NCBI RefSeq assembly: GCF_006345805.1
Contig: NC_043016.1
Location: 10,416,001-10,480,000, forward strand
Direction: 5' to 3'
DNA length: 64,000 nucleotides
Source: Octopus sinensis
Taxonomy: Eukaryota
Shown: one piece after another, positions 1-63,082 of the stretch
Layout of the letters: every line of letters starts with the position of its first letter
Position numbering within the stretch: position 1 is the stretch's first letter
The notes under the pieces: model-generated
Seen by the model: only the letters and a program-made list of their open reading frames with translations
Databases searched by the model: none
What the model was told of the DNA's origin: nothing
Program-made: the position numbers and the translations under genes

Positions 1-3000
1 AATCAAGTTATGGCGAAGGCTTGAAAGTAGCCTAAAAGGTTAATTTTCGTAACAATGTATGAAGAAACGTAGTAACAACGAATAAAATAGTAAGATAAAT
101 TTTAAGAACTTGCTGCGGACATCGAACGGAGTTGAAATTGAATTGGGAATTTAAATTATAGAATCGTAATGGTGAGTGAGAGGAGGAAAAAAGACCGCCA
201 AATGGCTGATGAAAGATGGGAAGAGATAGGAGTTACGGCTTGAGGTAGCCTGGCCTAAGGTTAAATTTTGTAGAGAGAGAGATAGAAAGATAAATCAAGT
301 TATGGCGAAGGCTTGAAAGTAGCCTAAAAGGTTAAATTTCGTAACAATGTATGAAGAAACGTAGTAAAACGAATAAAATAGTAAGATAAATTTTTAAGAA
401 CTTGCTGCGGACATCGAACGGGAGTTGAAATTGAATTGGGAATTTAAATTATAGAATCGTAATGGTGAGAGGAGAAAAAAAAGACCGCCAAATGGCTGAA
501 AGATGGGAAGAGATAGGATTACGGCTTGAGGTAGCCTGGCCTAAGGTTAAATTTTGTAGAGAGAGAGATAGAAAGATAAATCAAGTTATGGCGAAGGCTT
601 GAAAGTAGCCTAAAAGGTTAAATTTTCGTAACAATGTATGAGAAGAAACGTAGTAACACAACGAATAAAATAGTAAGATAAATTTTTAAGAACTTGCTGC
701 GGACATCGAACGGGAGTTGAATTGAATTGGGAATTTAAATTATAGAATCGTAATGGTGAGAGGAGGAAAAAAAGACCGCCAAAGGCTGAAAGATGGGAAG
801 AGAATAGAGATTACGGGCTTGAGGTAGCCTGGCCTAAGGTTAAATTTTGTAGAGAGAGAGATAGAAAGATAAATCAAGTTATGGCGAGGCTTGAAAGTAG
901 CCTAAAAGGTTAAATTTTCGTAACAATGTATGAAGAAACGTAGTAACAACGAATAAAATAGTAAGATAATAAATTTTTAAGAACTTGCTGCGGACATCGA
1001 ACGGGAGTTGAAATTGAATTGGGAATTTAAATTATAGAATCGTAATGGTGAGAGGAGGAAAAAAAGACCGCCAAATGGCTGAAAGATGGAAGAGATAGGA
1101 TTACGGCTTGAGGTAGCCTGGCCTAAGGTTAAATTTTGTAGGAGAGAGATAGAAAGATAAATCAAGTTATGGCGAAGGCTTGAAAGTAGCCTAAAAGGTT
1201 AAATTTTCGTAACAATGTATGAAGAAACGTAGTAACAACGAATAAAATAGTAAGATAAATTTTTAAGAACTTGCTGCGGACATCGAACGCGAACGGGAAG
1301 TTGAAATTGAATTGGGAATTTAAATTATAGAATCGTAATGGTGAGAGGAGGAAAAAGACCGCCCCCCCAAATGGCTGAAAGATGGGAAGAGATAGGATTA
1401 CGGCTTGAGGTAGCCTGGCCTAAGGTTAAATTTTGTAGAGAGAGAGATAGAAAGATAAATCAAGTTATGGCGAAGGCTTGAAAGTAGCCTAAAAGGTTAA
1501 ATTTTCGTAACAATGTATGAAGAAACGTAGTAACAACGAATAAAATAGTAAGATAAATTTTAAGAACTTGCTGCGGACATCGAACGGGAGTTGAAATTGA
1601 ATTGGGAATTAAATTATAGAATCGTAATGGTGAGAGGAGAAAAAAAGACCGCCAAATGGCTGAAAGATGGGAAGAGATAGGATTACGGCTTGAGGTAGCC
1701 TGGCCTAAGGTTAAATTTTGTAGAGAGAGAGATAGAAAGATAAATCAAGTTATGGCGAAGGCTTGAAAGTAGCCTAAAGGTTAAATTTTCGTAACAATGT
1801 ATGAAGAAACGTAGTAACAACGAATAAAATAGTAAGATAAATTTTTAAGAACTTGCTGCGGACATCGAACGGGAGTTGAAATTGAATTGGGAATTTAAAT
1901 TATAGAATCGTAATGGTGAGAGGAGGAAAAAAAGACCGCCAAATGGCTGAAAGATGGAAGAGATAGGATTACGGCTGAGGTAGCCTGGCCTAAGGTTAAA
2001 TTTGTAGAGAGAGAGATAGAAAGATAAATCAAGTTATGGCGAAGGCTTGAAAGTAGCCTAAAAGGTTAAATTTTTCGTAACAATGTATGAAGAAACGTAG
2101 TAACAACGAATAAAATAGTAAGATAAATTTTAAGAACTTGCTGCGGACATCGAACGGGAGTTGAAATTGAATTGGGAATTTAAATTATAGAATCGTAATG
2201 GTGAGAGGAGGAAAAAAAAGAAAAAAAGACCGCAAATGGCTGATGAAAGATGGAAGAGATAGGATTACGGCTTGAGGTAGCCTGGCCTAAGGTTAAATTT
2301 TGTAGAGAGAGAGATAGAAAGATAAATCAAGTTATGGCGAAGGCTTGAAAGTAGCCTAAAAGGTTAAATTTTCGTAACAATGTATGAAGAAACGTAGTAA
2401 CAACGAATAAAATAGTAAGATAAATTTTTAAGAACTTGCTGCGGACATCGAACGGGAGTTGAAATTGAATTGGGAATTTAAATTATAGAATCGTAATGGT
2501 GAGAGGAGGAAAAAAAAGACCGCCAAATGGCTGAAAGATGGGAAGAGATAGGATTACGGCTTGAGGTAGCCTGGCCTAAGGTTAAATTTTGTAGAGAGAG
2601 AGATAGAAAGATAAATCAAGTTATGGCGAAGGCTTGAAAGTAGCCTAAAAGGTTAAATTTTCGTAACAATGTATGAAGAAACGTAGTAACAACGAATAAA
2701 ATAGTAAGATAAATTTTTAAGAACTTGCTGCGGACATCGAACGGGAGTTGAAATTGAATTGGGAATTAAATTAGAGAATCGTAATGGTGAGAGGAGGAAA
2801 AAAAGACCGCCAAATGGCTGAAAGATGGGAAGAGATAGGATACGGCTTGAGGTAGCCTGGCCTAAGGTTAAATTTTGTAGAGAGAGAGATAGAAAGATAA
2901 ATCAAGTTATGGCGAAGGCTTGAAAGTAGCCTAAAAGGTTAAATTTTCGTAACAATGTATGAAGAAACGTAGTAACAACGAATAAAATAGTAAGATAAAT

Positions 3001-5688: not shown

Positions 5689-6316
5689 AAAGAGTAGAAT
5701 GTGATTTGAAGAAGATTTTTGCTGCTATTTCTAGCAAATCGAACATTCACATTGAGGGCCCCTTAGCTGAATCATACAGTAAGTAGTTAGAAGTATATCC
5801 ATGCACCTCTACTTACTGAAATTTGGGTACCAACTTGATAGCTTAGTCAATCAAATTGATACCAATGCTTATCTTAAGTCAAGCATTTATTTTATCAGTT
5901 TCTTTTTGCCAAATCTCTAAGTAACAAAGATGTAACGAAAAGAAATTTCTGAATTTGAGTGACCAGCTACAAGGTTTGTTGAAGTTATATTTTGGCCATT
6001 GAGATTTTAAATCCCAAAATATTTATTTTCTATCATTAACAAGTGTATAATATAATGATTAGCACATGTGACAGTGACAGAACAGGTATTTACACCAAAA
6101 TAACAGTTAGTCAATGAGGTACAAAGGTGAGTGGACTGTCTAGCAACATGACAGGTATCTGTCCTACTGAAATGAATTGATTGATTCTAGCAGCTCGCTG
6201 GTTTAGATGTGTCATCGTCATCATTGCCATCCATTGATCTTGATGTTACAACCAAGTGTGCCCTACTTTGCTAACAGACTTTACTCACTAATGGCAAAAA
6301 GGTACTAAGTATATAG

Positions 6317-6710: not shown

Positions 6711-7138
6711 TACTTATTCGGAGTAAAGATTATTTGCCAACGTAACATGGCAGTCCTAGTTTAGGATGAATGTTGCTGTAATTTAGCCCCAGGAAACACC
6801 ACCTGGGGCTAAATTATAGCAACAATCATCCTAAACCAGGATTGCCATGTTATTTCTTATTTCTTTACTGATCACAAAGAGCTACACACAGAGGGGACAA
6901 ACAAGGACTGACAAATGGATTAAGTCGATTATGTCGAACCTAGTGTGTAACTGGTACTTATTTAATCGCCCCCAAAAGGATGAAAGGCAAAGTCGACCTC
7001 AGTGGAATTTGAACTCAGAACGTAGTGGCAGACAAAATATCACTAAGCATTTCGCCCGGTGTGCTAACATTTCTGCCGGCTCGCCACCTTATCCAGGACT
7101 GCCATGTTATGTTGGCAAACAATCTTTACTCCAAAGTA
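6711..7138. mobile_element. Fold-back MITE interrupted by a minus-strand Meta-type SINE (6854-7091)
   Basis: GGAGTAAAGATTATTTGCCAAC is inverted to GTTGGCAAACAATCTTTACTCC; centre CCCCAGG..CCTGGGG. The SINE is flanked by a CCAGGA(T/C)TGCCATGTTAT duplication. Confidence 0.8.
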
Positions 7139-20002: not shown

Positions 20003-20250
20003 ATTCCCTTCATCATTTAAATTTAATTTGCCAAAATATTTTCGTCGCATTGAGACCATGACCTGTTTACTGACAAAATTCTGTGCTGGATCTCAAAACA
20101 ACAAAAATATTTTGGCAAATTAAATTTAAATGTTGAAGTGAATCTAATGTTTTTGTGTTTTTTCAAATGGCTTATAAACAGCTTCACACTGCAATTGTTT
20201 TCATTCCAGCACATGATCTAAGATCAGGTCACTTGCTATGCAAGTACATT
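20002..20250. mobile_element. Inverted-repeat element; same family as 62288-62612
   Basis: TTTAAATTTAATTTGCCAAAATATTTT and its inverse; shared tail CAGGTCACTTGCT.TGCAAGTACAT. Confidence 0.75.
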
Positions 20251-20254
20251 TCCA

Positions 20255-20301
<47 letters not shown>

Positions 20302-37165: not shown

Positions 37166-37262
37166 AAAAAATATGGAACGCTTCACGAATTTGCATGTCA
37201 TCCTTGCGCAGGGACCATGCTAATCTTCTCTGTATCATTCCAATTTTAGAATATGTACCGCC
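37166..37262 (-). pseudogene. U6: U6 snRNA retro-pseudogene, missing ~11 nt at the 5' end
   Basis: Minus strand GGCGGTACATATTCTAAAATTGGAATGATACAGAGAAGATTAGCATGGTCCCTGCGCAAGGATGACATGCAAATTCGTGAAGCGTTCCATATTTTTT contains the ACAGAGA box, AGC triad and oligo-U end. Confidence 0.95.
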
Positions 37263-37446
37263 TTAGCTTTGTTACAATAGCAACAGTCCGGATACTTATT
37301 GATCAGATCTTGTGCAGTTAACAGAAAATATCAGACAGAAATTGGTCTGGAAGGAAGATTAGATTAGATTAGAAGATAATGAGGTGGGGTTGGGGGTGAA
37401 ATGCAAAGTGTTGGAGTGGTGAGGAAAGAGATGTATGGTACCAGAG

Positions 37447-61830: not shown

Positions 61831-62287
61831 CATTTAAATATACCTATATCTGATATTCTTAAGCTTGATAATTTAGAAATCTAAGGTAGAAAAAATAATA
61901 TATTTACATAATTTATATCGTATTATTCGAATTAAGCAAAAATAAAGCATTTTTTTTCTGGGAAAAGAAGCCAAAATATGTGATTTATTCTGTTCGTTAT
62001 CTTTTTTTTTACAAATGGAAAAATATAAAATATTCAAGATTTTTAAGTTATATAGGTGACTGTGACCTATTTCTTAAAGAATTAAATTATGAAATATTTA
62101 GAATAGTTAAAACACTTAAAATATGTTAATTTTGATTGCTTGTCGGTCTGGTATGATGGGTGGGTGGGTGGGTGGGTGGGTAGGTGGGTAGTTAAAGGAA
62201 AGAGCTTATGTCAGCCTAAGACCACAAAAATACCCTGAATAGAATAGGAAAATGGTGTAAAGAAGTTTTATTCAAAATATGAAAAAG

Positions 62288-62612
62288 AATCAATTGCAGT
62301 GTGGAAGGTGTTTATAAGCCATTTAAGAAACACACAAAAACCGTTAGATTCACTTCAACATTTAAATTTAATTTGTCAAAATATTTTCGTTGCTTTGAGA
62401 CTGCGACCTGTTCACTGACAAAATTCCATGGTCAACGAACAGGTCGCGGTCTGAAAGCGATGAAAATATTTTGACAAATTAAATTTAAATGTTGAAGTGA
62501 ATCTAACGGATTTTGTGTGTTTCTTAAATGGCTTATAAACACCTTCCACACTGCAATTGATTTTTGTTTCAGCTCACAATCTCAGATCAGGTCACTTGCT
62601 TTGCAAGTACAT
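62288..62612. mobile_element. Long inverted-repeat element carrying a G3-C8 hammerhead-like motif
   Basis: Arms of ~130 bp (62288-62419 and 62431-62562) plus a 3' extension shared with 20002-20250. Confidence 0.78.
62372..62422 (-). ncRNA. Minimal type I hammerhead-like motif, G3-C8 variant
   Basis: TTTGTCA-GTGAACA-G-GTCGC-loop-GCAAC-GAAA-ATAT-TT-TGACAAA. Confidence 0.62.
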
Positions 62613-62982: not shown

Positions 62983-63082
62983 NNNNNNNNNNNNNNNNNN
63001 NNNNNNNNNNNNNNNNNNNNNNNNNNNNNNNNNNNNNNNNNNNNNNNNNNNNNNNNNNNNNNNNNNNNNNNNNNNNNNNNNN
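62983..63082. other. Assembly gap (100 N)
   Basis: Run of N. Confidence 1.

What the first reader, a model, noticed from the sequence alone, without database searches (positions are those of the whole stretch)
62288..62612. Palindromic element whose hammerhead core has the compensatory G3-C8 swap
Seen: a 7-bp helix I (TTTGTCA/TGACAAA), core GTGAACA, helix II GTCGC/GC(G/A)AC, GAAA, a palindromic ATAT loop and UU. Known: C3 and G8 form a Watson-Crick tertiary pair in hammerheads, and G3-C8 is a rare natural variant. The double change keeps the pair, which argues for function and would be missed by CUGANGA searches. The opposite arm (62431-62477) is decayed in the core but supplies GCGA for helix II. 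Activity is inferred.
Basis: partly seen in the sequence, partly recalled or inferred. Interest (0 to 1): 0.75.

Follow-up and report, generated by a model that had tools for sequence, protein, structure and literature searches.

The report
Swapped-core hammerhead in Penelope retroelement ends
This palindrome is two head-to-head end pieces of a very common Penelope-type jumping gene, likely in an octopus; its family carries a hammerhead-shaped RNA with the core C-G pair swapped to G-C in thousands of copies, predicted but not shown to cut itself slowly, while this particular copy is likely inactive.

Summary
62288-62612 is a head-to-head pair of 5'-truncated ends of a Penelope-like retroelement (PLE), with a ~53-nt tail on one arm. 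A near-full-length parent was found: telomerase-like RT plus C-terminal GIY-YIG ORF between two direct copies of the unit. The family holds G3-C8 (72 of 74 and 72 of 75 unbiased arms; 6,612 pattern matches). A sister PLE family (RT 55% identical) has C3-G8 at the homologous place, so the swap is genuine covariation in a minimal type I hammerhead. Function is weaker than proposed. This copy has a helix II mismatch, a decayed second arm, and would fold into one long hairpin. 87 of 100 insertions span the uncut site. The sister family spread with A9C in 78 of 100 copies. Mismatched G3·G8 copies are about 3-fold in excess, but their order of origin is unresolved. Natural G3-C8 was not found in my paper searches, but key papers were unreadable. 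The scan found this family three times before on other DNA. Verdict: new variant of a known kind.

The parts
62288..62430 (-). Left arm: 5'-truncated copy of the PLE leader/pLTR end, without tail; starts 15 nt before G3, ends at the inner 3' end point of the family
62372..62422 (-). Minimal type I hammerhead motif with G3-C8 core, extra G after A9, helix II with one C·A mismatch (CpG decay), AAUAUU palindromic helix III, predicted cut between 62379 and 62378
62409..62415 (-). Core G3 U4 G5 A6 A7 C8 A9 (G3 = 62415, C8 = 62410)
62431..62612 (+). Right arm: second copy, joined to the left arm without spacer at 62430|62431, running through the tail
62431..62478 (+). Decayed hammerhead motif (A3, C4, U11.1; helix I 5' strand cut to 4 nt)
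62528..62612 (+). Remnant of the first ~28 codons of the parent ORF (ATG at 62528)
62560..62612 (+). Tail (~53 nt here, ~58-60 nt in the family) present on one arm only; stretch between the two preferred 3' end points

Best explanation
The element is a head-to-head pair of short end copies of a Neptune-like Penelope retroelement, likely written by the parent's RT/GIY-YIG protein from uncut leader RNA, and the family's leader carries a minimal type I hammerhead motif with the 3-8 pair swapped to G3-C8 that is predicted to cut slowly, likely only as a dimer or with protein help, while this copy is likely inactive. SHOWN: a parent with a telomerase-like RT + GIY-YIG ORF flanked by direct copies of the unit; the motif lies ~95 nt upstream of the ORF start; G3-C8 is the family state; a sister family has C3-G8 at the homologous place; 3' ends fall at two points inside the ORF start; the tail is on one arm only; the two arms come from the same subfamily. 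INFERRED (by analogy to the Anolis Poseidon experiments): the protein nicks both strands of AT-rich DNA, starts reverse transcription at two internal sites of the leader RNA (one per strand), copies back to the RNA 5' end about 23 nt before G3, and the two cDNAs are joined head to head. INFERRED: C3-G8 is ancestral and G3-C8 derived; any cleavage acts on parent or tandem transcripts and is not needed for these insertions.
For: Parent L135: unit 2557-2751 runs into an ORF at 2657, ORF ends 5868, second direct unit 6918-7050. P0001 has RT motifs, a CxxxCxxC linker and a GIY-YIG-type end; its model (pLDDT 89.5) matches telomerase RTs in ranks 1-5; homologue P0089 passes the Pfam GIY-YIG cut-off. 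G3 72 of 74 and C8 72 of 75 in 100 arms picked by a motif outside the hammerhead. Sister family: 3,616 matches, G8 in 100 of 100 listed, C3 in 93, G3 in 0, with a homologous ORF start and a compensatory change in helix II. 3' ends: 37 of 100 at +122..133 and 56 of 100 at +184..186. Tail on exactly one arm in 76 of 77 pairs. Arms share a subfamily in 68 of 73 pairs and share 15 rare variants against 1.7 in permutations. 87 of 100 arms start upstream of the cut site. Intact copies fold into helix I + II as the minimum-energy structure (z -1.9 and -2.5). Literature: PMC4209133 (anatomy, weak dimer cleavage), PMC11167929 (two RT start sites, C3G/G8C partial rescue, protein-assisted cleavage, not needed for insertion), PMC8557442 (inverted copies, tail).
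Against: No cleavage assay and no raw RNA reads. Within the family, paired and core positions are not significantly more constrained than the neighbouring flank (1 of 35 against 3 of 37 variable, p = 0.61); only loop II stands out (4 of 9). The sister family carries A9C in 78 of 100 listed copies, and G3·G8 is 3.3-fold in excess (260 against ~79 expected), so core integrity may be loosely kept. The triplet is UUU and the dimer helix III is all A-U (-2.0 kcal/mol). P0001 itself hits no Pfam family. The tail is longer than the 30-40 nt described for PLEs. Shared variants cannot tell one RNA molecule from one source locus, and 286 rare variants are on one arm only. Clade placement was not tested against reference PLEs.
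Confidence: 0.8

Rival explanations
1. Same retroelement origin, but the hammerhead is vestigial or works only as a folded signal (protein-binding site, promoter or leader element). The 3-8 swap arose by drift in a lineage that no longer needs cleavage.
For: Sister family with A9C spread to thousands of copies. G3·G8 excess, in both arms of 4 of 13 independent pairs. No fossil signal of cut templates. Paired positions are no more constrained than the flank. In the Anolis element cleavage is dispensable in vitro and no RNA ends were seen at the site (PMC11167929).
Against: A double transversion that restores the pair is unlikely to fix without selection on the pair. All other core letters stay at the consensus. 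Helix I and II change in compensated ways between families. G3-C8 and not G3·G8 dominates.
Confidence: 0.35
2. The palindrome is itself a functional non-autonomous unit (MITE-like or retrozyme-like) whose two arms cooperate to form an active ribozyme.
For: Thousands of short copies against few ORF copies; many copies share a similar centre.
Against: Junction positions differ from copy to copy. Ends are asymmetric, with a tail on one arm. The arms lie on opposite strands and pair with each other. No tandem arrays of the short unit were seen in the loci fetched. The unit is an exact part of the parent leader.
Confidence: 0.05
3. The hammerhead resemblance is chance within an ordinary repeat.
For: No Rfam hammerhead hit; the window arms fold no better than shuffles (z -0.2 and -0.5).
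Against: 1 descriptor hit against 0.025 expected; every min-HHR hallmark is present; a canonical CUGAUGA core occurs at the homologous place in the sister family (20 of 100 listed copies have A9); PLE leaders are known to carry such motifs.
Confidence: 0.03

Closest known systems
Minimal type I hammerheads (min-HHR) in pLTRs of metazoan Penelope-like elements (Cervera and de la Pena 2014, PMC4209133)
   Same: Type I topology, extra nucleotide between 9 and 10.1, G10.1-C11.1, tiny palindromic helix III, thousands of dispersed single motifs, some in opposite strands close together
   Different: 3-8 pair is G-C; the parts read report only C3-G8 and the natural U3-A8 variant; helix I is 7 bp and helix II 5 bp
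Poseidon element PAc of Anolis carolinensis (Frangieh et al. 2024, PMC11167929)
   Same: Hammerhead at the pLTR-ORF junction; two 3' end points inside the ORF start that define a tail; AT-rich targets; uncut RNA as template; engineered C3G/G8C partly active
   Different: Here G3-C8 is natural; the ORF starts ~60 nt after the cut site and not within stem II; tail ~58-60 nt; Neptune-type zinc-finger linker present
Neptune-clade EN+ Penelope-like elements (as described in Craig et al. 2021, PMC8557442)
   Same: C-terminal GIY-YIG with CCHH, CX2-5CxxC linker, tandem and inverted 5'-truncated copies, one-sided tail, (TA)n neighbourhood
   Different: Placement among reference clades not tested; hammerhead core is non-canonical and would escape the cuganga descriptor used there
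Non-LTR retrozymes (PMC7229834; bioRxiv 10.64898/2026.07.22.740005)
   Same: Short non-coding, hammerhead-bearing, PLE-derived, high copy
   Different: Not in tandem arrays; minimal and not canonical hammerhead; copies are direct truncations of the parent leader

Membership tests
Minimal type I hammerhead (PLE min-HHR) | Helix I closing the motif and helix II of 4-8 bp with G10.1-C11.1 | tested here: met
   the window's left arm has one mismatch in helix II
Minimal type I hammerhead (PLE min-HHR) | U4 G5 A6, A9, G12 A13 A14, A15.1-U16.1, H17 | tested here: met
   71/74, 71/74, 75/75, 78/78, 77/82, 82/82, 81/83, 81/84, 84/87, 87/87 in unbiased arms
Minimal type I hammerhead (PLE min-HHR) | Watson-Crick pair between positions 3 and 8 | tested here: met
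   G3-C8 here, C3-G8 in sister families
Minimal type I hammerhead (PLE min-HHR) | Literal CUGANGA core | tested here: not met
   0 of the first 100 of 6,612 matches are C3-G8; 1 in-family C3-G8 among 90 G8 copies
Minimal type I hammerhead (PLE min-HHR) | Extra nucleotide between 9 and 10.1; palindromic 15.2-16.2 | tested here: met
   G in 76 of 78; AAUAUU
Minimal type I hammerhead (PLE min-HHR) | Second same-sense motif available for dimer formation | tested here: inconclusive
   Not at this locus (opposite strands); present 4.4 kb apart in L135 and 2.6 kb apart in L097
Minimal type I hammerhead (PLE min-HHR) | Site-specific self-cleavage | not testable with these tools
   No raw RNA reads offered; needs an assay
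EN+ Penelope-like element (Neptune-like) | Single ORF with telomerase-like RT | tested here: met
   Pfam RVT_1 only sub-threshold on homologues and none on P0001
EN+ Penelope-like element (Neptune-like) | C-terminal GIY-YIG endonuclease with CCHH and a CX2-5CxxC linker | tested here: met
   Motifs read in P0001; C668, C671, Y686, Y702 invariant in 66 homologues; PF01541 above cut-off in P0089
EN+ Penelope-like element (Neptune-like) | pLTR direct repeats, inverted truncated copies, one-sided tail | tested here: met
   tail longer than the 30-40 nt described
EN+ Penelope-like element (Neptune-like) | Phylogenetic placement within Neptune rather than Nematis or another clade | not tested
   No reference PLE sequences at hand
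Non-LTR retrozyme | Tandem arrays of a 150-400 nt unit with canonical type I hammerheads | tested here: not met
   Solo or inverted copies in the loci examined
MITE / foldback DNA transposon | Symmetric fixed termini mobilised by a transposase | tested here: not met
   Asymmetric tail, variable junctions, RT parent

The most novel reading that the evidence does not exclude
This family is a natural, active G3-C8 hammerhead, and the genome keeps a fossil record of how the swap happened: C3-G8 in sister families, then a mismatched G3·G8 stage that still transposed (about 180 copies above background, concentrated in the older subfamilies), then compensation to G3-C8. That would be a natural case of a ribozyme core crossing an inactive valley while hitch-hiking on a retroelement that does not need cleavage to insert.
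Probability: 0.2. Interest if true: 0.7.

Novelty: new variant of a known kind. Interest (0 to 1): 0.42.

Why it matters
The C3-G8 tertiary pair was proven with an engineered G3-C8 double mutant. A natural family fixed for that swap in thousands of copies extends the hammerhead consensus and shows that CUGANGA-based surveys undercount PLE ribozymes, which bears on reports of PLEs 'lacking' hammerheads. With a sister family carrying A9C and natural G3·G8 copies, one genome supplies a ready series to ask whether PLE hammerhead cleavage matters at all. The two sharp 3' end points with a one-sided tail give genomic support, in a second PLE clade, for internal two-site initiation of reverse transcription. 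The locus itself is an ordinary decayed insertion.

Tried and rejected
Rfam scan: no hammerhead family at E<=1; only chance miRNA-type hairpin matches here. Fossil evidence for cleavage: only 2 of 100 arms start exactly at the cut site, both at inverted junctions where the 7-nt helix I repeat gives microhomology, so rejected as evidence. A G3·G8 source lineage with intact ORFs: the five ORF-linked GTGAAGAAG loci compared share outer flanks and are one insertion duplicated, and the ORF tree root had only 62-68% support. G8 arms are not one clade (16 changes for 22 rows, weak clustering; 87 of 199 arms long enough to be used). The higher divergence of G8 arms (5.2 against 3.2%) is biased by how the C8 arms were picked and is not used. 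Spliced 5' exon: the sequence before G|AGATG is not shared, so a common exon is unlikely; a copied cap G remains an untested idea. Expression: no RNA holder listed; contigs cannot show ends; the 60-nt lay gave no variant table. Pfam and PDB sequence searches with P0001 alone were blank. Co-folding two leader copies did not give the dimeric hammerhead, which is a kissing arrangement that the folding model cannot represent. Literature for natural G3-C8: searches found none. Lunse 2017, Hammann 2012, Arkhipova 2017, Martick and Scott 2006, Przybilski and Hammann 2007 and Nelson and Uhlenbeck 2008 were not held, and no supplements were read, so a prior report cannot be excluded.

Full report
OBSERVATION. 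The arms 62282-62419 and 62431-62568 are 138 nt and 93% complementary. On the minus strand the motif reads helix I (62422-62416), G3 U4 G5 A6 A7 C8 A9 (62415-62409), one extra G, helix II 5' strand (62407-62403), a 9-nt loop, helix II 3' strand with one C·A mismatch, GAAA, ATAT, UU and helix I 3' strand (62378-62372). The plus-strand arm has A3, C4 and U11.1 and only four bases of helix I. A descriptor that accepts any Watson-Crick 3-8 pair and one helix II mismatch finds this one site in the window, against 1 hit in 40 shuffled windows. Rfam gives no hammerhead hit at E<=1. The window arms do not fold better than shuffles, whereas intact family copies fold into helix I plus helix II (z -1.9 and -2.5).

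FAMILY AND CONSENSUS. The window lies in a 2.72-Gb animal genome. It is likely an Octopus species, because a protein named from O. vulgaris matches the sister family at 99%. The pattern TGTCANNGAANAGGTCGC has 6,612 exact matches (reversed control 1); of the first 100 listed, 92 are G3 with C8 and none is C3-G8. Only 239 matches with U4 have a letter other than G at position 3. A 19-mer outside the hammerhead has 9,646 matches. I took its first 100 as an unbiased sample: G3 72 of 74, C8 72 of 75, and the other core letters 94-100%. The unit is also in contigs of public runs labelled as four coded organisms, where the loose-end consensus lines that reach the core mostly read GTGAACAG.

PARENT ELEMENT. 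Copies that keep upstream sequence (696 matches) led to long insertions. L135 holds the unit at 2557-2751 running into an ORF (ATG 2657, about 95 nt after G3). The ORF ends at 5868 with one frameshift and is followed by a microsatellite-rich UTR and a second direct unit at 6918-7050. P0001 (793 aa, L093) shows RT motifs, a CxxxCxxC linker and a GIY-YIG-type C-terminus. It has no Pfam or PDB sequence hit itself. Homologues hit RVT_1 below cut-off and GIY-YIG above it (P0089; 6 of 66 scanned). Its model (pLDDT 89.5) matches telomerase RTs in ranks 1-5. These are the marks of an EN+ Penelope-like element, Neptune-like by the linker (PMC8557442, passages).

WHY A PALINDROME. In the 100 arms, 3' ends fall at two points inside the ORF start: 37 at +122..133 and 56 at +184..186 from G3. 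In 76 of 77 inverted pairs with both arms long enough, exactly one arm carries the tail. This set includes loci picked for likeness to the window and some duplicated loci. Arms share a subfamily in 68 of 73 pairs. They share 15 rare variants in 81 pairs against 1.7 in permutations (maximum 7), while 286 rare variants are on one arm only. 5' ends cluster near -23 (55 of 100 at -17 or further up, 73 upstream of -5). Of 37 copies starting at AG-ATG without genomic upstream sequence, 25 have a G in front where the parent has C or T, which may be a copied cap. Frangieh et al. (PMC11167929, parts 1, 2 and 4 read) showed in vitro that a Poseidon protein nicks and extends both strands, starts at two internal sites that bound the tail, and uses uncut RNA. 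I infer the same here: one cDNA per strand, joined head to head. In this copy the junction is 62430|62431 without spacer. A transcript through it folds into one hairpin (-202 kcal/mol), and each strand holds only one sense motif, so the locus is unlikely to be a working ribozyme.

IS THE SWAP REAL COVARIATION? A sister family (RT 55% identical) has a homologous ORF start and, at the same place upstream, GGACCA CTGATG(C/A) G GTCAC..GTGAC GAAA. It has 3,616 matches; of the first 100, all have G8, 93 have C3 and none has G3. Further small families have TGTCA CTGAAGA GGTCGC (5 matches). On a hand-picked alignment of 11 motifs the 3-8 pair is C-G in 5, G-C in 4 and unpaired in 2; helix II is 98% paired with one double change. 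The set is small and related, so this documents the covariation without testing it statistically. Since C3-G8 is the general state, G3-C8 is likely derived.

DOES IT CUT? Not shown. For: the pair and all other core letters are kept; the anatomy is that of PLE min-HHRs, which cut weakly as dimers (PMC4209133, parts 1-2 read); engineered C3G/G8C partly rescues activity (PMC11167929; PMC8495972, passages). Against: 87 of 100 arms span the uncut site, and the 2 that start at it are explained by microhomology. Paired and core positions are not more constrained than the flank (1 of 35 against 3 of 37, p 0.61), although loop II takes most subfamily changes (4 of 9). The sister family has A9C in 78 of 100 listed copies. 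The triplet is UUU and the dimer helix III is weak. I put slow, conditional cleavage of the intact leader at about 0.55-0.6.

G3·G8 EXCESS. G8 occurs in 260 matches against 217 for T8 plus A8. The background spectrum at other C/G sites is C>T 43, C>G 21, C>A 15, so about 79 are expected (p 5e-6). Eight of the first 100 of the 260 have the GAAGAAG form seen in the duplicated insertion. 85 of 90 G8 copies in one upstream context have G3. G8 is rarer in the youngest subfamily (3 of 30 against 13 of 26). It is present in both arms of 4 of 13 independent pairs and in one arm of 9. But G8 arms are scattered over the tree, including the young clade, the ORF-linked examples compared are one duplicated insertion, and the ORF tree cannot be rooted firmly. 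An evolutionary intermediate is possible but not shown; a hot spot or template mixing fits as well.

PRIOR KNOWLEDGE. Perreault et al. 2011 (PMC3088659, section 8 and passages) and Cervera and de la Pena 2014 report U3-A8 as the natural covariation. Seven searches found no natural G3-C8. Six relevant papers were not held and no supplements were read. PMC3884650, PMC7229834, PMC6765202 and PMC2920678 were seen as passages and the 2026 retrozyme preprint as part 1. This scan noted the same family three times on other DNA; my reading was formed before that look-up and agrees with it.

VERDICT. A real, ordinary insertion of a known retroelement class, carrying a hammerhead core variant that seems not to be described as natural. 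New variant of a known kind; interest 0.42.

Noticed in passing
window 20012-20259: Second, older copy of the same family: short inverted left arm with G3-C8 but G5 changed to A, right arm starting in loop II and carrying the tail, followed by (TA)n.
   Followed up: partly
window 37167-37275 (-): U6 snRNA copy, 104 bits, with an altered 5' stem and a common repeat right behind it; likely a retrocopy.
   Followed up: no
L277:8104-8158 and 3,616 genomic matches: Sister PLE family whose hammerhead has C3-G8 but A9 changed to C in 78 of the first 100 copies; a second non-canonical core that spread widely.
   Followed up: partly
L135:2510-2545 and 696 genomic matches: A textbook 3' splice-site-like sequence (CTAAC, pyrimidine tract, AG) ends exactly where most short copies begin, just before helix I, as described for the D. 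virilis Penelope intron; no spliced exon was found.
   Followed up: partly
family-wide, offset -24 from G3: 25 of 37 copies start with a G not present in the parent, possibly a reverse-transcribed cap marking the transcription start.
   Followed up: partly
L312-L316, L268-L275: Small older families with TGTCA (C/T)TGAAGA GGTCGC motifs; L312 and L314-L316 resemble the sister family downstream.
   Followed up: partly
L261:4265 and 4629: Two copies, 364 nt apart, of another hammerhead-like motif with U3-A8 (TTGACAA, helix II GGGG/CCCC, GAAA, CGCG, UC); possibly a different tandem element.
   Followed up: no
L014, L020-L024, L039, L046, L051, L175, L200: One palindromic insertion with identical junction and shared flanks occurs at many loci, carried inside another repeat or duplication.
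   Followed up: no
window 62984-63082: Assembly gap (run of N) about 370 nt downstream of the element.
   Followed up: no
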